Source: a virus | Taxonomy: Duplodnaviria > Heunggongvirae > Uroviricota > Caudoviricetes | DNA: 10,027 bases | IMG/VR virus record: IMGVR_UViG_3300015186_000054 | Direction: 5' to 3' (one strand) | In this document: one piece after another, positions 4,112-10,027 of the stretch | How the letters are laid out: every line of letters starts with the position of its first letter | Position numbering within the stretch: position 1 is the stretch's first letter | Notes under the pieces: generated by a model | What the model was told of the DNA's origin: nothing | Seen by the model: the letters and a program-made list of their open reading frames with translations, nothing else | Databases searched by the model: none | Made by a program: the position numbers and the translations under genes

Positions 4112-4696
4112 ATGAAAAGTATCCAGGACGTCCGCAGGCAAAATCTCAACGACTTGATCGACCGTGAATTCAATGGTGTTCAGACGCGGATGGCTGAAAA
4201 ACTTGGAACTCAGGCAAATCTGGTAAACCGCTGGGCTCTTGGCAAGAAGGTTATCGGCGACCAGGTTGCACGAAAAATTGAAGCTGCCGCCAATAAACCC
4301 CGTAACTGGCTTGATATCGATCGCTCGCTTTCTCAGGAAGGTTTTCAGCCTGTCGGCCCAAGCGACATTGGCCAGCTGGCGGCTCACAACCTGGAACGCT
4401 GGATGAGCGAAAGCCGCGACCTTTCAACACAGGGAAAACTTCACCGCGCATCCGGCGTAGCCCAGGTGACAATCAGCCGCCTGTTAAACAATGAGGTCAG
4501 CGTTTCCATTTCCACCCTGGAGAATGTTGCATCCGCATTCGGGCGTCACGGCTATGAATTACTGATTCACCCGCACGACCCTGCGACCATCAACTATGAT
4601 CGCTCGCGCTACGCATTGTTACCCGAAACCGAGAAAGCAAAGATCGAAAGTTACATTGAATTTGTCATCAACCAGAACGAAAAAAACAAACAATAA
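4112..4696 (+). CDS. prophage repressor (CI analogue) with two XRE-type HTH domains and no LexA/S24 peptidase domain
   Basis: 194-aa ORF. N-terminal HTH (GVQTRMAEKLGTQANLVNRWALGKKVIGDQVARKIEAAANKPRNWLD) and a second HTH-like segment (LHRASGVAQVTISRLLNNEVSVSISTLENVASAFG). No Ser/Lys autoprotease motifs. Divergent from the Cro-like gene, weak or no SD, followed by a strong intrinsic terminator. Confidence 0.7.
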   Translation: MKSIQDVRRQNLNDLIDREFNGVQTRMAEKLGTQANLVNRWALGKKVIGDQVARKIEAAANKPRNWLDIDRSLSQEGFQPVGPSDIGQLAAHNLERWMSESRDLSTQGKLHRASGVAQVTISRLLNNEVSVSISTLENVASAFGRHGYELLIHPHDPATINYDRSRYALLPETEKAKIESYIEFVINQNEKNKQ

Positions 4697-4716: not shown

Positions 4717-4743
4717 AAGCCGCCTTATGGCGGCTTTTTTATT
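4717..4743 (+). terminator. rho-independent terminator downstream of the repressor gene
   Basis: Stem AAGCCGCC (4717-4724), loop TTAT, stem GGCGGCTT (4729-4736), followed by a run of T residues. Confidence 0.8.
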
Positions 4744-4784: not shown

Positions 4785-4816
4785 CTATTGACATCAAACC
4801 ATATACGCATAATTAT
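4785..4816 (+). promoter_or_regulatory. putative sigma70 early-left promoter (pL analogue)
   Basis: -35 TTGACA at 4788-4793 (perfect consensus), 17-bp spacer, -10 AATTAT at 4811-4816. Flanked by operator dyads 19 bp upstream of the -35 and overlapping the -10. Confidence 0.55.
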
Positions 4817-4849: not shown

Positions 4850-5002
4850 ATGCAGTGGAAAATCATCAACGGTTGGTACTGCGTTACTGCATGCGGATTC
4901 ATGAGCTGGAAGTTCCGCACCTTACAGGAAGGCATTAAGTGGGCTTTCGTCAGCAAAGAAGCTCGCGATGTGGCCAACGATAACGAGATATGGGAGGGCT
5001 GA
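4850..5002 (+). CDS. hypothetical small protein (50 aa, Trp-rich), first ORF after the leftward early promoter
   Basis: Not in the ORF track (below size cut-off). ATG 4850 with SD GAGGT 9 nt upstream; TGA at 5000-5002. Translation MQWKIINGWYCVTACGFMSWKFRTLQEGIKWAFVSKEARDVANDNEIWEG. Coding status uncertain. Confidence 0.35.
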   Translation: MQWKIINGWYCVTACGFMSWKFRTLQEGIKWAFVSKEARDVANDNEIWEG

Positions 5003-5004
5003 TA

Positions 5005-5304
5005 ATGAACGTTAATCAGCAGAAAAATCTTCAAAAAATCATGCTGGCATTCGATAAGGACTACCGCCTGTCAGAACAGCTATATGACCGACAAGTTGAA
5101 CTGATTGAGAGCATCCGACTTCATCAACTGTCCTCAACTTTCGACGTTGTAACAGGCAAAGGCGTTCGTCAGGAAGTACTGGAGGCTGCTAAAGACAGCC
5201 CTGAGTTCGAAGAACTGATGGATGCCTACCGTCGCGAGGCAATGGCAATTATCGCCCGCTGGGATCTGGCTGATCAGATTGATGGGCAGAGGGACGCGGC
5301 ATGA
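5005..5304 (+). CDS. hypothetical phage protein (99 aa)
   Basis: Track ORF 4990..5304. I prefer ATG 5005 (MNVNQQKNLQ...) because SD GGAGG lies 7 nt upstream. Its stop overlaps the ATG of the exonuclease gene (ATGA). No family recognised. Confidence 0.55.
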   Translation: MNVNQQKNLQKIMLAFDKDYRLSEQLYDRQVELIESIRLHQLSSTFDVVTGKGVRQEVLEAAKDSPEFEELMDAYRREAMAIIARWDLADQIDGQRDAA

Positions 5305-6200
5305 TGCGGAACGCTGGAATCATGGATAGAACAAAATACATCGGAGGAAGCGATGTTGCAGGGATTCTTGGAATTAGCCCATGGCGCACCCCGCTTGAGG
5401 TTTATCTGGATAAGGTCCAGCCACGTGTCAAACCAGTAGACCCAAGCAAGCAGAAAGTTTTCACGCGTGGCCAGCGTATGGAGCCATACGTAATAGACCT
5501 GCTTTCTGAGGAAACAGGGATGGAAATCGTTCATCGCGGAAACCGCTATATCCACCGTGATTACGATTTTATTGCAGCTGAGATCGATGCAGAAGCAGCG
5601 TCAGGCGAGAACATTGAGATCAAAACAGTTAGTCCGTTCAAAGCCAAAGAATGGGGAGAAATCCAGACAGATGCAATTCCTGTGCATTACACGGCCCAGG
5701 CCATGCACGGGTTGATGGTTACAAACAAACAGGTATGCGTTTTCGGTGTGCTTATCGGTGGCGACGACTTCCGAATCTATCGGGTTGAGCGTGATGAAGA
5801 AACTATCCAGGCGATCTTAGAAAAAGAAATCGCTTTCTGGGACCGAGTGAAAAATCTTAACCCGCCGGAAGCTACCAGCGTAAGCGATGTATCGCTGATG
5901 TTTGAGAAAGATGCCGGGACAAGTATCGAGGCTGACGGAAAGGCACTCGCACTATTCAACGATCTACGAGACATGAAGTCACGCAGAAAATCACTGGAAG
6001 AAGAAATAGCTATATCAGAAGAGAAGCTGAAGATGTACATGCAAGAGCACTCAGTCCTGACCCTGGACGGAAAGCCGCTCTGCACATGGAAATCTCAGAT
6101 CAGCAACAGATTCGACCAGAAGCTATTCCAGTCAGTACACCCTGAGTTATTCGAAAAATTCAAAACAACAACGACACAACGCGTCTTCAGAATGAAGTAA
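5301..6200 (+). CDS. YqaJ/lambda-Exo-type phage exonuclease (recombination partner of RecT)
   Basis: 299-aa ORF. N-terminal KYIGGSDVAGILGISPWRTPLEVYL is the characteristic YqaJ viral-recombinase-domain signature. Immediately upstream of a RecT gene. SD AGAGGGA upstream. Confidence 0.85.
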   Translation: MMRNAGIMDRTKYIGGSDVAGILGISPWRTPLEVYLDKVQPRVKPVDPSKQKVFTRGQRMEPYVIDLLSEETGMEIVHRGNRYIHRDYDFIAAEIDAEAASGENIEIKTVSPFKAKEWGEIQTDAIPVHYTAQAMHGLMVTNKQVCVFGVLIGGDDFRIYRVERDEETIQAILEKEIAFWDRVKNLNPPEATSVSDVSLMFEKDAGTSIEADGKALALFNDLRDMKSRRKSLEEEIAISEEKLKMYMQEHSVLTLDGKPLCTWKSQISNRFDQKLFQSVHPELFEKFKTTTTQRVFRMK

Positions 6201-6209
6201 GGAGAAAAA

Positions 6210-7232
6210 ATGTCTATCAATGCACTTAAGGCAGCGGCTACCGGTAACCAAGTTGCACATCATAATGAGAAACCAACAACTCTGGCCGGACTTCTGGCAG
6301 ACCCAAAAATTAAAGCTCAGATGGCTTTGGCACTTCCAAAGCACATGACAGCAGACCGTCTGGCGCGCATAGCAACCACAGAGATCCGAAAGGTTCCAAA
6401 ACTTGCATCATGCGACCAAGCCAGCTTCCTGGGGGCAATTATGCAATGTGCCCAATTGGGTCTTGAACCAGGCGGAGCTCTTGGACACGCTTACCTGATA
6501 CCGTTCGACAAACGCCAGAAAGTAAATGGAAGATGGGAAACCGTATCTACAGAAGCACAGCTGATTATCGGCTATCGCGGAATGATTGACCTTGCCCGCC
6601 GCTCTGGGCAGATCCTGAGTATCTCGGCTCGTACCGTACATACAAACGACAAATTCAGCTACTCATACGGCCTGGAAGAAACGCTCGAGCATTTACCTTG
6701 CGAAACAGGTGACCGCGGAGAATTAACGCACGTTTACGCCGTTGCACGACTGAAAGATGGCGGAGTCCAATTTGAAGTTATGAGCCGGGCAGACGTTGAG
6801 AAAGTTCGTGCACTGAGCAAAGCCGGTAGCAGTGGCCCATGGGTTGATCACTTCGATGAGATGGCTAAAAAAACAGTAATTCGCCGACTGTTCAAATATC
6901 TTCCTGTTTCTATTGAAATGCAGAAGGCTGTTGTTATGGATGAGCGCGCTGAAGCTGGACTTAGCCAAGATAACGCAGCTGTTATCACTGGTGAATATTC
7001 CGTAGTTGACGATGAGCGTCAACACCTATCGCCAATTTCAGATTCAGAACGAGAAGAAGCTCGAGAATATATCATCGCGATACTTAATAGCCTGGATCCA
7101 TCTGCTGAAGATGCAAAAACGATGTTCAAGCGCGCTGAAAATGAAATTAACACCATGGCTGACAAGCTCGGTGATGAATATCACCAAAAATTCATGATGA
7201 CGCTTAACGATATGCGTCCAGAATTCGAGTAA
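6210..7232 (+). CDS. recT: RecT-family single-strand annealing recombinase
   Basis: 340-aa ORF. GHAYLIPFDKRQKVNGRWETVSTEAQLIIGYRGMIDLARRSGQI matches the RecT/Red-beta core as recalled. SD AAGGAG 6 nt upstream of ATG 6210. Confidence 0.9.
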   Translation: MSINALKAAATGNQVAHHNEKPTTLAGLLADPKIKAQMALALPKHMTADRLARIATTEIRKVPKLASCDQASFLGAIMQCAQLGLEPGGALGHAYLIPFDKRQKVNGRWETVSTEAQLIIGYRGMIDLARRSGQILSISARTVHTNDKFSYSYGLEETLEHLPCETGDRGELTHVYAVARLKDGGVQFEVMSRADVEKVRALSKAGSSGPWVDHFDEMAKKTVIRRLFKYLPVSIEMQKAVVMDERAEAGLSQDNAAVITGEYSVVDDERQHLSPISDSEREEAREYIIAILNSLDPSAEDAKTMFKRAENEINTMADKLGDEYHQKFMMTLNDMRPEFE

Positions 7233-7240
7233 CCACCACC

Positions 7241-7259
7241 GCGGCGCCACGCGCGCCGC
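7241..7259 (+). other. GC-rich hairpin between recT and the AlpA-like gene (no U-tract)
   Basis: GCGGCGC (7241-7247), loop CACGC, GCGCCGC (7253-7259): perfect 7-bp G/C stem, not followed by a T-run. Confidence 0.4.
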
Positions 7260-7281: not shown

Positions 7282-7530
7282 ATGAAAGGTGCATTAGGTA
7301 AGAAGGAACTCCTGGCGGTGGTGCCACTGTCATGGAGCACTATCGACCGTATGGAGCGCGCAGGGGAATTTCCTAAACGCTGGTATATCACCGATAAACG
7401 CTGCGCATGGAACCGTGATGAAGTTGAGCGTTGGCTTGATGAACGTCAGGCAGCAAGCCCGGCAGAGTTCCAGGGTAAAAAACCTCCTGTTCAGCAACGT
7501 GTATATCGTCCCGTGAGCAACGCGGCATGA
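7282..7530 (+). CDS. AlpA/Xis-family DNA-binding protein (excisionase or transcriptional regulator)
   Basis: 82-aa ORF. LLAVVPLSWSTIDRMERAGEFPKRWYITDKRCAWNRDEVERWLDERQ is the typical AlpA/phage-excisionase pattern. SD GAGAGG upstream. Confidence 0.75.
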   Translation: MKGALGKKELLAVVPLSWSTIDRMERAGEFPKRWYITDKRCAWNRDEVERWLDERQAASPAEFQGKKPPVQQRVYRPVSNAA

Positions 7531-7643
7531 GTGTGCTGCTAAGGCACTGGAGCAAATGGTCAGGATGGTACTTATTCCTGGCCTCTGTTTCTGCATGGCT
7601 TTATCTGCTGGCATTAATTTTCAGAGAGGGTTGGATTAAGTGA
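7527..7643 (+). CDS. hypothetical 38-aa single-pass membrane peptide
   Basis: Not in the ORF track. ATG 7527 overlaps the AlpA stop (ATGA) and its TGA at 7641-7643 overlaps the GTG start of the next gene (GTGA). Translation MSVLLRHWSKWSGWYLFLASVSAWLYLLALIFREGWIK has one hydrophobic Trp-flanked segment. Coding status inferred from the double coupling. Confidence 0.35.
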   Translation: MSVLLRHWSKWSGWYLFLASVSAWLYLLALIFREGWIK

Positions 7644-7939
7644 GAAAGTTAAGCCGACTTGATAAATATCACATGAACAAGGTTTCAATGCGCAGCCCTT
7701 CAAAGGTTGTTGCCGTTACTCCTGCGGCGATAGAGATCGAAAAACGCGCGATTGAAAGAGAGAAAAAAGGGCAATTCCGCATTGCCGCTCACCTTTGGCT
7801 TCAGTGTATGGATGTTGCTTCTGGTGATGTTGAACGTGCAAGGATCGCGGTTCGCAGGGACCAATGTATCACAAAAAGTAACGGCCTTCGCCGTGGCGAC
7901 TATAGCGGCATAGGATGTTGCGGGGTGGTTTATGACTAA
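7640..7939 (+). CDS. hypothetical small protein, possibly ANR-family regulator-like
   Basis: Track ORF 99 aa, GTG start with a purine-rich stretch (AGAGAGGG) about 10 nt upstream. EREKKGQFRIAAHLWLQCMDVASGDVERARIAVRRDQC resembles my memory of the ANR-family pattern found downstream of alpA in P4-like elements; unverified. Confidence 0.5.
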   Translation: MRKLSRLDKYHMNKVSMRSPSKVVAVTPAAIEIEKRAIEREKKGQFRIAAHLWLQCMDVASGDVERARIAVRRDQCITKSNGLRRGDYSGIGCCGVVYD

Positions 7940-8582
7940 GAAATACACACTAATCTATGCAGATCCACCCTGGGTATACCGGGATAAAGCCGCAGATGGT
8001 AATCGCGGTGCCGGTTTTAAATATCCGGTTATGAGTGTGCTGGATATCTGCCGCCTTCCTGTGTGGGATTTGGCCGATGAAAACTGTCTATTGGCCATGT
8101 GGTGGGTGCCAACACAACCACTCGAAGCACTAAAAGTTGTTGAAGCCTGGGGATTCCGTCTGATGACCATGAAGGGCTTCACGTGGATAAAATGTGGTAG
8201 TCGACAACCAGATAAACTGGTTATGGGTATGGGACACATGACTCGCGCCAATAGTGAAGATTGCCTGTTTGCGGTAAAGGGAAAACTACCTCCGCGCATT
8301 AATGCAGGTATCGTTCAGTCATTTACCGCACCGCGGCTTGAGCATTCAAGAAAACCAGATGTCGTTCGTGAAAAACTTGTGCAATTATTAGGCGATGTTT
8401 CTCGCATTGAACTGTTCGCCCGCCAGACGTCTCATGGCTTCGATGTTTGGGGTAATCAGTGCGAAGACCCGGCAGTGCAACTACACCCTGGATACGCGTT
8501 GGATATTGGCGGATTAACAAATGCATTCAGCAATGCTCCGCTGTCACCAACAGACAACCAGGGGCGGGAGCGTGCTGCATGA
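7932..8582 (+). CDS. MT-A70-family DNA N6-adenine methyltransferase, orphan (no restriction partner in window)
   Basis: 216-aa ORF. N-terminal LIYADPPWVY (DPPW catalytic motif) followed by CLLAMWW and GFTWIK, typical of MT-A70-like methyltransferases. ATG 7932 overlaps the upstream stop by 8 nt; SD GGGGTGG. Confidence 0.85.
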   Translation: MTKKYTLIYADPPWVYRDKAADGNRGAGFKYPVMSVLDICRLPVWDLADENCLLAMWWVPTQPLEALKVVEAWGFRLMTMKGFTWIKCGSRQPDKLVMGMGHMTRANSEDCLFAVKGKLPPRINAGIVQSFTAPRLEHSRKPDVVREKLVQLLGDVSRIELFARQTSHGFDVWGNQCEDPAVQLHPGYALDIGGLTNAFSNAPLSPTDNQGRERAA

Positions 8583-8773
8583 ACAGGGCATCACCAGCAG
8601 ATTTAAGAAAATGCCTTGAAACTGCAAACATGCTTGCACACAGCGGGATCAGGTTTGTTCCAATTCCCGCTGTCACTGATGCTGAATTTGCAACACTGTC
8701 AGCAATATTCGAAAACAAAATTGAATCACTGGCAGCAGAAGCAGAGATGGAAGAAAATCAGCAGAACTATTAA
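8579..8773 (+). CDS. hypothetical phage protein (64 aa)
   Basis: Track ORF 8459..8773. I prefer ATG 8579 (MNRASPADLRK...), which overlaps the methyltransferase stop (ATGA) and has GGGAG upstream. Ends 3 bp from the integrase stop. Confidence 0.5.
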   Translation: MNRASPADLRKCLETANMLAHSGIRFVPIPAVTDAEFATLSAIFENKIESLAAEAEMEENQQNY

Positions 8774-8776
8774 ACG

Positions 8777-10027
8777 TTATTCCCCCGCCATCCACTTCTC
8801 AAACTTCGACGGGGAGAACGGAATAAGATCCGTATGCTCCCCGTTAATCCAGGAATCAATCATATCGGCCCACTGCTGCAACATGTAGGCGCGCTGTCTG
8901 GCGTATTCCGCTTTGTTATATACGGCGCGCACACCTTTCTGCTCATGTGCCAGAGCCTTTTCAATCCAGTCTGAAGGATAACCAGCCTCATGCAACAACG
9001 TACTTGCTGTACGGCGCATATCGTGTACGGTGAAGTCCTGAATATGCTCACCATCTTCATTTATTATTTTCACCGTTCTGTCGATCAGAGAGTTCAGCGC
9101 GGCATTAGATAATGGCTTCCGGAAATTGTAACGACCAGGAACCAGATATTCACTTCCACCAGCGCACATCTGCAACCCGACCAATATATCCTGAGCCTGT
9201 TTAGGCAGGTAAATAACATGCGCCCGGCTTCCCTTCATGCGGTCTGAAGGAATTGTCCATGTCCATTTTTTAAAATCTATTTCATCCCACGTTGCATTGG
9301 TGAATTCGCCCTTACGAACCATAGTGATAAGCACCAGTTTTAAAGCCATTTTCATAGTGCCCATAGCACCAATGGCATCCAACGTGCGGAAGAACAGGCC
9401 AATTTCTTCTGGTGTCAGTGTTCGCTCTCGTGGTTTAAATATGGCGATAGACGAAGGCTTAATGTCAGCCGCAGGATTAAACAAACCATGACCACGGTCA
9501 TTGGCGTGACGGTATACGCTGCTGATGATCTCCCTGGCCTGCACTGCTGTTGCCCGGCCACCGCGTTCGACAATCCGGTCACACAAATCACGAACCATCG
9601 ATGTGGTAATTTCAGCCATCATTTTGTTGCCAAGAACCGGAAGTATGTCACGGTCGATCACTGCCTGCTTCATTGCGCGGGTACTTTCAGCCAGGATGAC
9701 GTGTTTCATATAACTGTCGGTATGTACCGCAAACGTTTCGGCACCACGAATCTTTTTGATACCGTCACGTTTAGCCGCAGCCGGTGACTGGCCTGCTTTA
9801 AGCAGCTTCTTTGCAGCAATCAGTTCTTCCCGCGCTTCTGCCAGGCTGATACCGTCACGCCCATACTGCCCGATTACCAGTGTTTCGCGGCGACCGTTGA
9901 TACGGTAGTCATAACGAAATGAGACCGTGCCTGACGTAAGCACAGCTACATACAGCCCGTCACGATCGGAGACCTTGTACAGTTTGTCCTGCGGCTTGAG
10001 GTTTTTTAATTTTGTATCGGTAAGCAC
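8777..10027 (-). CDS. int: tyrosine recombinase, P4/IntS-type phage integrase
   Basis: 416-aa ORF. N-terminus LTDTKLKNLKPQDKLYKVSDRDGLYVAVLTSG is an integrase SAM-like N-domain. C-terminal HDMRRTASTLL ... LAHEQKGVRAVYNKAEY carries the His/Arg box and catalytic Tyr pattern. The first codon is GTG at 10027-10025, exactly at the window edge. Confidence 0.9.
   Translation of the reverse strand: MLTDTKLKNLKPQDKLYKVSDRDGLYVAVLTSGTVSFRYDYRINGRRETLVIGQYGRDGISLAEAREELIAAKKLLKAGQSPAAAKRDGIKKIRGAETFAVHTDSYMKHVILAESTRAMKQAVIDRDILPVLGNKMMAEITTSMVRDLCDRIVERGGRATAVQAREIISSVYRHANDRGHGLFNPAADIKPSSIAIFKPRERTLTPEEIGLFFRTLDAIGAMGTMKMALKLVLITMVRKGEFTNATWDEIDFKKWTWTIPSDRMKGSRAHVIYLPKQAQDILVGLQMCAGGSEYLVPGRYNFRKPLSNAALNSLIDRTVKIINEDGEHIQDFTVHDMRRTASTLLHEAGYPSDWIEKALAHEQKGVRAVYNKAEYARQRAYMLQQWADMIDSWINGEHTDLIPFSPSKFEKWMAGE

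What the first reader, a model, noticed from the sequence alone, without database searches (positions are those of the whole stretch)
7282..8773. Integrase-proximal five-gene coupled operon: AlpA/Xis, membrane peptide, ANR-like, MT-A70 methyltransferase, 64-aa protein
The five ORFs are chained by overlapping stop/start codons (ATGA at 7527, GTGA at 7640, ATG 7932 inside the preceding gene, ATGA at 8579), implying stoichiometric co-expression. An AlpA-ANR-integrase arrangement is typical of P4-like islands, yet here it is fused to a lambdoid early region, so the prophage looks mosaic. Integrase-adjacent accessory slots often hold defence or anti-defence cargo, and the orphan methyltransferase plus two uncharacterised small proteins are candidates.
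Basis: partly seen in the sequence, partly recalled or inferred. Interest (0 to 1): 0.6.

Follow-up and report, generated by a model that had tools for sequence, protein, structure and literature searches.

The report
Known phiV10-type prophage early-operon tail
The five overlapping genes are real, but they are the already-annotated end of the early operon of a common phiV10/epsilon15-type E. coli prophage (excision factor, tiny membrane peptide, PerC-type regulator, adenine methyltransferase, lambda Orf63-type protein), not a new defence island.

Summary
Observation confirmed. ORFs 7282-7530, 7527-7643, 7640-7939, 7932-8582 and 8579-8773 overlap as described, and the overlaps recur in relatives that are only 65-80% identical.

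Interpretation partly supported. The segment is 97-99% identical to phiV10 gp36-gp32 and occurs in about 10% of complete E. coli genomes. The same layout, RecT-AlpA-38aa-PerC-...-methyltransferase-...-convergent P4-type integrase, is found in epsilon15, Tyrion and prophages of several other enterobacterial genera. So it is the norm for the genus Uetakevirus, not a P4/lambdoid chimera.

It is not a separate operon. It has no promoter-like site of its own and is the distal end of the repressor-controlled early-left operon.

All five products fall in known families:
- AlpA/Xis.
- phrog_17484 membrane peptide.
- PerC (ANR scores below its cut-off).
- MT-A70 methyltransferase, 83% identical to the Stx-phage M.EcoPA8orf6770P/M.EcoGV enzyme.
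- DUF1382, the family of lambda Orf63.

No restriction partner or defence signature was found.

One observation I did not find in the papers searched: PerC-domain genes sit upstream of phage adenine methyltransferase genes in two unrelated backbones, and the methyltransferase fold in that slot is swapped (MT-A70, Dam PF05869, C5+D12). This points to Dam-like DNA methylation and a possible PerC-methyltransferase link.

Overall: already known, low-to-moderate interest.

The parts
4717..4736 (+). Terminator-like hairpin plus T-run directly after the repressor gene (4112-4696)
   Evidence: phiV10 annotates a rho-independent terminator at the equivalent place.
4788..4816 (+). Candidate early-left (PL-type) promoter, TTGACA-17-AATTAT. 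The likely start of the transcript that reaches the five genes.
   Evidence: 10 of 12 consensus matches, the best site in the region. Epsilon15 annotates repressor operators at the equivalent place. Function is inferred, not shown.
7241..7259 (+). GC-rich hairpin (7-bp stem GCGGCGC/GCGCCGC) between recT and the AlpA gene, with no T-run
   Evidence: -17.5 kcal/mol, but z-score only -1.09. Epsilon15 annotates a 'transcriptional pausing' stem-loop at the same place.
7282..7530 (+). AlpA-family winged-helix protein (82 aa). Probable excision directionality factor and/or transcriptional regulator. Equivalent to phiV10 gp36.
   Evidence: PF05930 at 24.2 bits (cut-off 21) and phrog_66 at 2e-16. PDB 8C3T 'AlpA family phage regulatory protein', E=1.8e-11. 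100% identical to phiV10 gp36.
7527..7643 (+). 38-aa peptide with one hydrophobic helix (WYLFLASVSAWLYLLALIF). Equivalent to phiV10 gp35 and epsilon15 gp32.
   Evidence: phrog_17484 'membrane protein', 4.7e-27. Conserved at 59-100% identity across Uetakevirus-like loci.
7640..7939 (+). PerC-family small helical protein (99 aa, GTG start). Equivalent to phiV10 gp34.
   Evidence: PF06069 at 31.3 bits (cut-off 22.6). NCBIfam ANR at 23.7 bits, below its cut-off of 32. Start position supported by relatives. AlphaFold model: helices at 6-17, 28-43, 46-59 and 63-85, with a low-confidence (pLDDT below 50) conserved tail at 86-99.
7932..8582 (+). MT-A70-family N6-adenine methyltransferase (216 aa, DPPW at residues 11-14). 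Equivalent to phiV10 gp33.
   Evidence: PF05063 at 78.9 bits. phrog_359 at 4.8e-120. All invariant family columns are present. 83% identical over residues 1-187 to the Stx-phage enzyme.
8579..8773 (+). DUF1382 / lambda Orf63-family protein (64 aa). Equivalent to phiV10 gp32.
   Evidence: PF07131 at 105.2 bits. PDB 8DSB, E=8.5e-13. PMC10869804 equates Orf63 with DUF1382.
8777..10027 (-). P4-type tyrosine integrase (416 aa), convergent with the operon. Equivalent to phiV10 gp31.
   Evidence: Arm-DNA-bind_3, Phage_int_M and Phage_integrase domains. 99% identical to the phiV10 integrase. In related prophages it lies next to guaA.

Best explanation
The segment is the promoter-distal end of the early-left operon of a phiV10-type (genus Uetakevirus) temperate phage integrated in E. 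coli. It corresponds to phage lambda's exo-xis region, lying between the recombination genes and the integrase.

Expression (inferred):
- In the lysogen the operon is shut off by the phage repressor (4112-4696).
- After induction or infection, transcription starts near 4788-4816. It runs through two small ORFs, the YqaJ exonuclease gene and recT, then passes a hairpin that has no T-run and reads the five genes. Their overlapping stop and start codons couple translation.
- With no terminator, transcription then runs antisense into the convergent integrase gene.

Products:
1. An AlpA-type winged-helix protein. It most likely directs excision by the P4-type integrase and may also regulate transcription.
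2. A conserved 38-aa single-helix membrane peptide. No tool result bears on its role.
3. A PerC/ANR-type three-helix protein. It most likely works through protein-protein contacts rather than as a classical DNA binder.
4. An MT-A70 adenine methyltransferase. It most likely acts as a phage Dam-like DNA methyltransferase, keeping replicating phage DNA adenine-methylated (probably at GATC).
5. A lambda Orf63-type dimer that biases development towards lysis.

What is shown: gene identities, synteny, coupling and family memberships. What is inferred: timing of expression, excision role, methylation target and pro-lytic role.
For: Identity with known phages:
- 97-99% DNA identity to phiV10, phiv142-3, ZX5 and the O157 typing phages 9 and 10.
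- Present in 559 of 5426 complete E. coli genomes.
- phiV10 annotates the same five genes as gp36-gp32, next to integrase gp31.
- The same gene order occurs in epsilon15 and Tyrion and in seven species-level genome loci. It is also seen in IMG/VR contigs and in prophages next to guaA.

Family assignments.

Operon structure: promoter-like and terminator-like sites, and the epsilon15 operator annotation.

Methyltransferase as a Dam-like DNA enzyme:
- The close Stx-phage homologue M.EcoGV is listed with GATC specificity (PMC6602927; PMC10810198).
- In the same slot of otherwise syntenic Uetakevirus-like prophages, the MT-A70 gene is replaced by a PF05869 'Dam' gene.
- In the lambdoid nin-region version of the slot, the occupants are MT-A70, PF05869 Dam, or C5+D12 (Dam-class) fusions.

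Orf63 role: pro-lytic phenotypes and the dimer structure in PMC10869804.

AlpA family includes both excisionases and transcriptional master regulators: PMC11773190.

PerC/ANR proteins:
- ANR proteins act by protein-protein binding (PMC4983702).
- The model is a three-helix bundle with no helix-turn-helix motif.
Against: - No experiment on phiV10 gp32-gp36 was found in the papers searched.
- The purified Stx-phage homologue had almost no DNA methyltransferase activity in vitro and preferred 16S rRNA when complexed with PNB-2 (PMC10810198). The DNA/GATC assignment is therefore contested.
- A GATC methyltransferase would duplicate the host Dam enzyme in E. coli.
- Promoter and terminator calls are consensus matches only. 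The scan found 4 promoter-like sites where 7.6 were expected by chance.
- The hairpin at 7241-7259 is not more stable than shuffled sequence (z = -1.09).
- The structural match of the PerC model to MIT/TPR-like bundles is not significant (E above 0.4).
Confidence: 0.75

Rival explanations
1. Anti-restriction cargo. The orphan methyltransferase is made early to pre-methylate phage DNA so that progeny or incoming genomes escape host restriction enzymes. The neighbouring small proteins help or time this.
For: - It is an orphan enzyme: none of the other cluster genes nor the adjacent integrase matches a nuclease family, and PADLOC matches only Type II methyltransferase models.
- It sits in an early operon.
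- PMC10810198 notes that many temperate-phage methyltransferases are thought to defend incoming phage against restriction-modification systems.
- The slot always holds some adenine methyltransferase.
Against: - The family's reported DNA specificity is GATC, which E. coli Dam already methylates.
- The purified homologue was nearly inactive on DNA.
- No restriction-protection experiment was found in the papers searched.
- This largely overlaps with the best explanation. It differs only in which benefit is selected for.
Confidence: 0.3
2. Ribosomal RNA methyltransferase that tunes prophage induction, as reported for Stx phage phiPA8. The enzyme, with a small partner, would methylate 16S rRNA and raise spontaneous induction.
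For: - 83% identity over residues 1-187 to the phiPA8-type enzyme.
- Orthology of the comparison locus was checked: the terminator quoted in the paper occurs exactly at L003:3031-3061.
- The paper reports a 1:1 complex with PNB-2, a preference for 16S rRNA, and an effect on spontaneous induction.
Against: - No PNB-2 homologue is in the window. The upstream PerC protein gives no BLASTP alignment with PNB-2.
- The C-terminal 29 residues differ from the Stx-phage tail that the paper links to PNB-2 binding.
- The same slot is filled by classical DNA Dam-family enzymes in sister prophages.
- The modified rRNA base was never identified.
Confidence: 0.15
3. A P4-like satellite or phage-inducible island module (int-alpA-perC) recently grafted onto a lambdoid early region and carrying novel defence or anti-defence genes.
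For: - P4-like island OI-51 and the island EcCIMP1 carry a P4-type integrase, AlpA and PerC-family genes.
- The integrase here is P4-type.
- The region between the PerC gene and the integrase gene is variable between relatives.
Against: - The arrangement is shared by isolated, complete Uetakevirus phages and by prophages in at least eight genera. It is ancestral to the group, not a recent graft.
- PADLOC gives no hit for the four non-methyltransferase proteins of the cluster.
- All five proteins fall in known phage families.
Confidence: 0.05

Closest known systems
Escherichia phage phiV10 gp36-gp32 plus integrase gp31 (NC_007804)
   Same: Same five genes in the same order with the same overlaps. 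97.7% DNA identity; proteins 96-100% identical; convergent integrase 3 nt away.
   Different: RefSeq starts the PerC gene at the internal ATG (88 aa). phiV10 annotates RecE-RecT as one fused CDS, whereas the window has separate YqaJ-type exonuclease and RecT genes, as in epsilon15.
Salmonella phage epsilon15 gp33-gp28 and Enterobacter phage Tyrion gp34-gp28
   Same: The AlpA-38aa-PerC trio is conserved (about 79% DNA identity) with the same overlaps, followed by an MT-A70 methyltransferase and a convergent P4-type integrase.
   Different: The insertions differ. Epsilon15 has a 35-aa ORF and a serotype-conversion gene. Tyrion has an Orf60a-like DUF1317, a 75-aa winged-helix protein and a different 68-aa downstream gene. 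Neither has DUF1382 after the methyltransferase.
Phage lambda exo-xis region (Orf60a = DUF1317, Orf63 = DUF1382)
   Same: Same position between the recombination genes and the excision/integration genes, in the early-left operon. The window's last gene is an Orf63 homologue. Sister prophages also carry DUF1317.
   Different: Lambda has no PerC protein, membrane peptide or methyltransferase there, and its int gene is co-directional with the operon. The lambda gene order is from my own knowledge and PMC10869804.
Stx-phage methyltransferase M.EcoPA8orf6770P / M.EcoGV with partner PNB-2 (PMC10810198)
   Same: MT-A70 enzyme 83% identical over 187 residues, located near the integrase and followed by a DUF1382 gene.
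   Different: The upstream gene there is PNB-2, a 143-aa winged-helix protein. It is unrelated to the PerC protein by BLASTP and not significantly related to winged-helix-PerC fusions by profile comparison (P=0.08). The C-terminal tails also differ.
P4-like islands and Gram-negative phage-inducible chromosomal islands (OI-51/CP-933C, EcCIMP1)
   Same: They carry a P4-type integrase, an AlpA-family regulator and a PerC-family protein.
   Different: Those elements have a P4-type primase, and EcCIMP1 at least has no phage structural or lysis genes. This element is a complete phage type with its own replication, recombination, lysis and virion genes, as seen in phiV10.

Membership tests
Uetakevirus (phiV10/epsilon15-type) early-left operon | Synteny: repressor - small ORFs - exonuclease - RecT - AlpA - 38-aa peptide - PerC - methyltransferase - convergent P4-type integrase | tested here: met
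Uetakevirus (phiV10/epsilon15-type) early-left operon | High nucleotide identity to an isolated member phage | tested here: met
   97.7% to phiV10 and 98.3% to phiv142-3 over 98% of the query.
AlpA family (PF05930) / excisionase | Profile match above the curated cut-off | tested here: met
   24.2 bits against a cut-off of 21. phrog_66 at 2e-16. PDB 8C3T at E=1.8e-11.
AlpA family (PF05930) / excisionase | Promotes integrase-mediated excision, or activates transcription | not testable with these tools
   The family contains both kinds of protein (PMC11773190).
PerC family (PF06069) | Profile match above the curated cut-off | tested here: met
   31.3 bits against 22.6. phrog_868 at 4.5e-61.
PerC family (PF06069) | Activates the LEE1/ler promoter | not testable with these tools
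   One PerC-family member from an island represses LEE1 instead of activating it.
ANR (AraC negative regulator) family, NF033650 | Profile match above the curated cut-off | tested here: not met
   23.7 bits against a cut-off of 32. By eye, several conserved residues (A, E, A, W, R, C) line up with the published ANR signature, so it is related but not a member.
MT-A70 methyltransferases (PF05063) | Profile match and catalytic DPPW motif | tested here: met
   78.9 bits. D11-P12-P13-W14 and all other invariant columns are present.
phiPA8-type rRNA methyltransferase holoenzyme (M.EcoPA8orf6770P + PNB-2) | Adjacent PNB-2 partner gene | tested here: not met
   No PNB-2 homologue in the window.
phiPA8-type rRNA methyltransferase holoenzyme (M.EcoPA8orf6770P + PNB-2) | Stx-type C-terminal tail that the authors link to PNB-2 binding | tested here: not met
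   The alignment ends at residue 187 and the tails are unrelated.
DUF1382 / lambda Orf63 | Profile match and similarity to the solved Orf63 structure | tested here: met
   105.2 bits against a cut-off of 27. PDB 8DSB at E=8.5e-13 over residues 2-62.
Restriction-modification or other anti-phage defence system | Methyltransferase accompanied by a nuclease or other effector recognised by defence models | tested here: not met
   PADLOC matches only MTase_II models for the methyltransferase. The other cluster proteins and the integrase gave no defence-model hit, and none of them matches a nuclease family.
P4-like satellite / phage-inducible chromosomal island | P4-type primase; dependence on a helper phage | tested here: not met
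   The window has its own replication genes and RecT, and its close relative phiV10 is a complete phage.

The most novel reading that the evidence does not exclude
PerC-domain proteins, either alone or fused to an N-terminal winged helix, may be dedicated companions of phage orphan adenine DNA methyltransferases. They could act as regulators, timers or targeting partners.

The pairing recurs in two unrelated phage backbones, even though the methyltransferase fold in the slot has been exchanged:
- The Uetakevirus early-left operon next to the integrase, where the slot holds MT-A70 or PF05869 Dam.
- The lambdoid region between the replication genes and rusA, where it holds MT-A70, PF05869 Dam or C5+D12 fusions. 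There the two genes usually overlap by a few nucleotides.

If real, 'PerC family transcriptional activator' annotations in prophages would need re-reading. The EHEC/EPEC virulence regulators PerC/Pch might then descend from a phage methylation-associated factor.
Probability: 0.3. Interest if true: 0.6.

Novelty: already known. Interest (0 to 1): 0.3.

Why it matters
As submitted, the finding adds little. The cluster was annotated in phiV10 and epsilon15 years ago and is carried by about one in ten complete E. coli genomes.

Its value is as a clean, very common example of a poorly understood accessory region. None of the five phiV10 genes has been tested experimentally in any paper I found. The literature on the methyltransferase family is contradictory: GATC DNA methylation on one side, 16S rRNA methylation with a partner on the other.

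The slot-replacement pattern found here bears on that dispute. MT-A70 is exchanged with classical Dam-family enzymes, and a PerC-domain gene is always upstream. This suggests a simple experiment: methylome and pull-down with and without the PerC and Orf63-like proteins.

Tried and rejected
- PADLOC scan of eight window proteins (the five cluster products, the integrase, the repressor and the 104-aa ORF 4990-5304). Only generic methyltransferase models matched the methyltransferase, and the repressor gave weak hits (E about 0.01). No defence system was found.
- Rfam scan of the whole window. No hit.
- Hairpin at 7241-7259 as a regulatory structure. It is not more stable than shuffled sequence (z = -1.09), so I list it only because epsilon15 annotates one there.
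- Homology between PNB-2 and the PerC protein or the winged-helix-PerC fusions. BLASTP gave nothing. hhalign with shallow alignments gave P=0.059 and with deeper alignments P=0.08. The alignments are colinear but not significant, so homology is not claimed.
- Structure search with the PerC model. The best matches are MIT/TPR-like three-helix bundles at E above 0.4, which is not significant.
- tblastn of a stand-alone PerC protein against the phage collection. It was too insensitive and found only Tyrion.
- Locus search with the diverse PerC alignment.
- Whether DUF1382 is a specific methyltransferase partner. It lies downstream of the methyltransferase here and in Stx phages, but upstream in other Uetakevirus-like loci, and it is present in lambda without any methyltransferase. 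I read this as shuffling of exo-xis-type modules, not a dedicated pair.
- I did not test a PerC-methyltransferase complex by structure prediction. The tool takes single chains of window or database proteins only.
- I did not check Pch/PerC loci of EHEC/EPEC for neighbouring methyltransferases.
Full report
**1. The observation**

- 7282-7530 (82 aa)
- 7527-7643 (38 aa)
- 7640-7939 (99 aa, GTG start)
- 7932-8582 (216 aa)
- 8579-8773 (64 aa)

The junctions are ATGA (7527), GTGA (7640), an 8-nt overlap ATGACTAA (7932-7939) and ATGA (8579). A 416-aa integrase gene (8777-10027) converges on the cluster from the minus strand, with only 3 nt between the two stop codons.

The overlaps are not chance. 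In relatives whose PerC protein is 64-77% identical, the AlpA/peptide junction is again ATGA. The PerC gene there starts with ATG at the position of the window's GTG 7640, and the 11 residues ahead of the internal Met are conserved.

**2. What the element is**

The 1.6-kb region is 97-99% identical to Escherichia phage phiV10, phiv142-3, vB_EcoP_ZX5 and the O157 typing phages 9 and 10. It is present in 559 of 5426 complete E. coli genomes. phiV10 annotates the same genes as gp36 (AlpA), gp35 (membrane protein), gp34 (PerC family), gp33 (adenine methylase), gp32 (DUF1382) and gp31 (P4-type integrase).

Epsilon15 and Tyrion, of the same genus (Uetakevirus), keep the AlpA-38aa-PerC trio at about 79% DNA identity. 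In both it is followed by an MT-A70 methyltransferase and the convergent integrase. A scan of one genome per species found the same skeleton in Superficieibacter, Pseudescherichia, Kluyvera, Scandinavium, Citrobacter and Klebsiella. Further prophages were found through PerC homologues, including one in Kosakonia. Two of the three sets lie next to guaA, the attachment site reported for ZX5.

The 'P4-like module fused to a lambdoid early region' is thus the standard architecture of this phage group.

**3. Operon structure**

No promoter-like site precedes 7282. The best + strand site is TTGACA-17-AATTAT at 4788-4816, immediately after a terminator-like hairpin (4717-4736) that ends the repressor gene (4112-4696). 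No + strand terminator-like site follows until 9793, inside int. Epsilon15 annotates repressor operators at the equivalent position and a 'pausing' stem-loop between recT and the AlpA gene. The window has a 7-bp GC stem there (7241-7259), but it is not more stable than shuffled sequence.

I infer that the five genes are the distal part of a roughly nine-gene early-left operon: two small ORFs, a YqaJ-type exonuclease, RecT, then the five. I also infer that read-through would be antisense to int. These are consensus-based inferences, not demonstrations.

**4. The proteins**

- **AlpA.** PF05930 scores above its cut-off, phrog_66 is 'excisionase and transcriptional regulator', and PDB 8C3T matches. 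The family holds both true excisionases and transcriptional master regulators. Next to a P4-type integrase and expressed on induction, an excision-directionality role is the most economical reading.
- **The 38-aa product.** It belongs to phrog_17484 (membrane protein) and has one hydrophobic helix. Its function is unknown.
- **The 99-aa protein.** It passes Pfam PerC (31.3 bits against 22.6) but fails NCBIfam ANR (23.7 against 32). 'ANR-like' is therefore a near miss. An AlphaFold model (mean pLDDT 71) has helices at 6-17, 28-43, 46-59 and 63-85, with a low-confidence tail at 86-99 that carries a conserved YSGI motif. The nearest solved folds are MIT/TPR-like bundles, but not significantly so. 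ANR proteins act by protein-protein binding.
- **The 216-aa protein.** It is an intact MT-A70 enzyme with the DPPW motif and all family-invariant residues.
- **The 64-aa protein.** It is not uncharacterised. It is DUF1382, the family of lambda Orf63 (PDB 8DSB, E=8.5e-13), a dimer reported to favour lytic development.

PADLOC gave nothing beyond generic methyltransferase models, and none of the cluster genes or the integrase matches a nuclease family. Rfam gave nothing.

**5. The methyltransferase**

The window enzyme is 83% identical over residues 1-187 to the Stx-phage enzyme. I confirmed that the comparison locus is the phiPA8 type: the terminator quoted in the paper occurs exactly at L003:3031-3061.

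The literature on this enzyme is split:
- M.EcoGV is listed as GATC-specific after over-expression.
- The purified phiPA8 enzyme was almost inactive on DNA. It formed a 1:1 complex with the upstream 143-aa protein PNB-2, preferred 16S rRNA, and raised spontaneous induction.

The window has no PNB-2, and its C-terminal tail is different.

New evidence bearing on the target comes from what else occupies the slot:
- In otherwise syntenic Uetakevirus-like prophages, the slot between PerC and int holds a PF05869 'Dam' methyltransferase instead of MT-A70.
- In lambdoid prophages the equivalent slot holds MT-A70, PF05869 Dam, or large C5+D12 fusions.

Non-orthologous replacement by classical DNA adenine methyltransferases argues that the selected function is Dam-like DNA methylation. 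I rate this more likely than rRNA methylation for this phage group. It remains an inference.

**6. A recurrent PerC-methyltransferase pairing**

Among 38 species-level loci with an intact methyltransferase homologue:
- 7 are Uetakevirus-like, with PerC 0.15-1.6 kb upstream.
- 6 are lambdoid prophages in which the next gene upstream of the methyltransferase is again a PerC-domain protein, overlapping its start in five and about 190 nt away in L043. Pfam scores were 41.9, 36.1, 30.5 and 25.5 bits (above cut-off) and 20.0 and 17.3 bits (below). Three of the six are fused to an N-terminal winged helix.

All six winged-helix-PerC fusion proteins I looked up are followed by a methyltransferase gene that overlaps or abuts them within a few nucleotides, whichever fold it has.

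The caveats are real. There are only two backbones. Within each backbone the loci share ancestry. PerC genes also exist without methyltransferases (the pEAF perABC operon, from my own knowledge, and the island EcCIMP1). The same PerC subfamily precedes different methyltransferase folds, which argues against a fold-specific subunit. Homology of these fusions to PNB-2 is not supported (P=0.06-0.08). I did not find this pairing described in the papers searched. I offer it as the novel case at about 30%.

**7. DUF1382 and DUF1317**

DUF1382 follows the methyltransferase here and in Stx phages. It precedes the methyltransferase in other Uetakevirus-like loci, where an Orf60a-like DUF1317 gene is often present too. 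Lambda has both genes without a methyltransferase. I read this as shuffling of exo-xis-type modules in a variable slot, not as a dedicated pair.

**8. Verdict**

The cluster is already known and annotated, so novelty is low. Residual interest lies in three things: the lack of any experimental work on these very common genes, the contested target of the methyltransferase family, and the PerC-methyltransferase association.

Noticed in passing
window 7763-7768 (A6 run inside the PerC gene) and the alternative-frame ORF 7752-7913: Several database alleles of this PerC gene are frameshifted into the +1 frame and end ...VATIAA at 7913, 19 nt before the methyltransferase start. They are P0108 (78 member sequences), P0083 and P0112. 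The shifts occur at different points, one near the A-run. PerC may often be inactivated in resident prophages, or these may be sequencing errors.
   Followed up: partly
protein P0102, relative to window 7640-8773: One NCBI protein is an in-frame fusion of the PerC N-terminal half to the DUF1382 protein. This is a natural deletion that removes the whole methyltransferase gene.
   Followed up: no
L125, L128, L129, L131, L133-L136 (lambdoid prophages): Winged-helix-PerC fusion genes (146-152 aa) lie between the replication gene and a methyltransferase gene of varying fold. In several loci a short LexA_DNA_bind-only protein (98-113 aa) and RusA follow. The LexA-N-domain-only genes are an unexplained recurring neighbour.
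   Followed up: partly
L139, L141-L143 compared with L137, L138 and L140: Sister Uetakevirus-like prophages carry a PF05869 Dam-family methyltransferase in place of the MT-A70 enzyme in the slot between PerC and int. The L137/L138 and L141/L142 prophages lie next to guaA.
   Followed up: yes
L012:2937-4004, L011:3513-4004, L013:3492-3998: In Citrobacter, Pseudescherichia and Klebsiella loci the gene immediately upstream of the methyltransferase is a larger inserted gene of 355, 163 or 168 aa. I did not identify these. In the Citrobacter and Klebsiella prophages (L012, L013) it lies between PerC and the methyltransferase, marking an insertion hot spot; L011 has no detectable PerC.
   Followed up: no
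window 5301-6200 and 6210-7232: The YqaJ-type exonuclease and RecT are separate genes here, as in epsilon15. The phiV10 RefSeq record annotates one 1761-nt fused RecE-RecT CDS.
   Followed up: no
window 8773-8777: Only 3 nt separate the stop of the last early-operon gene from the stop of the convergent integrase gene, and there is no terminator-like site. Epsilon15 has a gap of about 155 nt with an annotated RNase III site. Antisense control of int by early-left read-through is possible.
   Followed up: partly
C-terminal ends of many genes in these operons, e.g. window 7519-7530 and 8571-8582: Upstream genes at ATGA junctions very often end in ...AA or ...EAA/RAA (GCN GCA TGA). This holds across many unrelated genes in the related loci, suggesting a shared junction sequence that serves translational coupling.
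   Followed up: no
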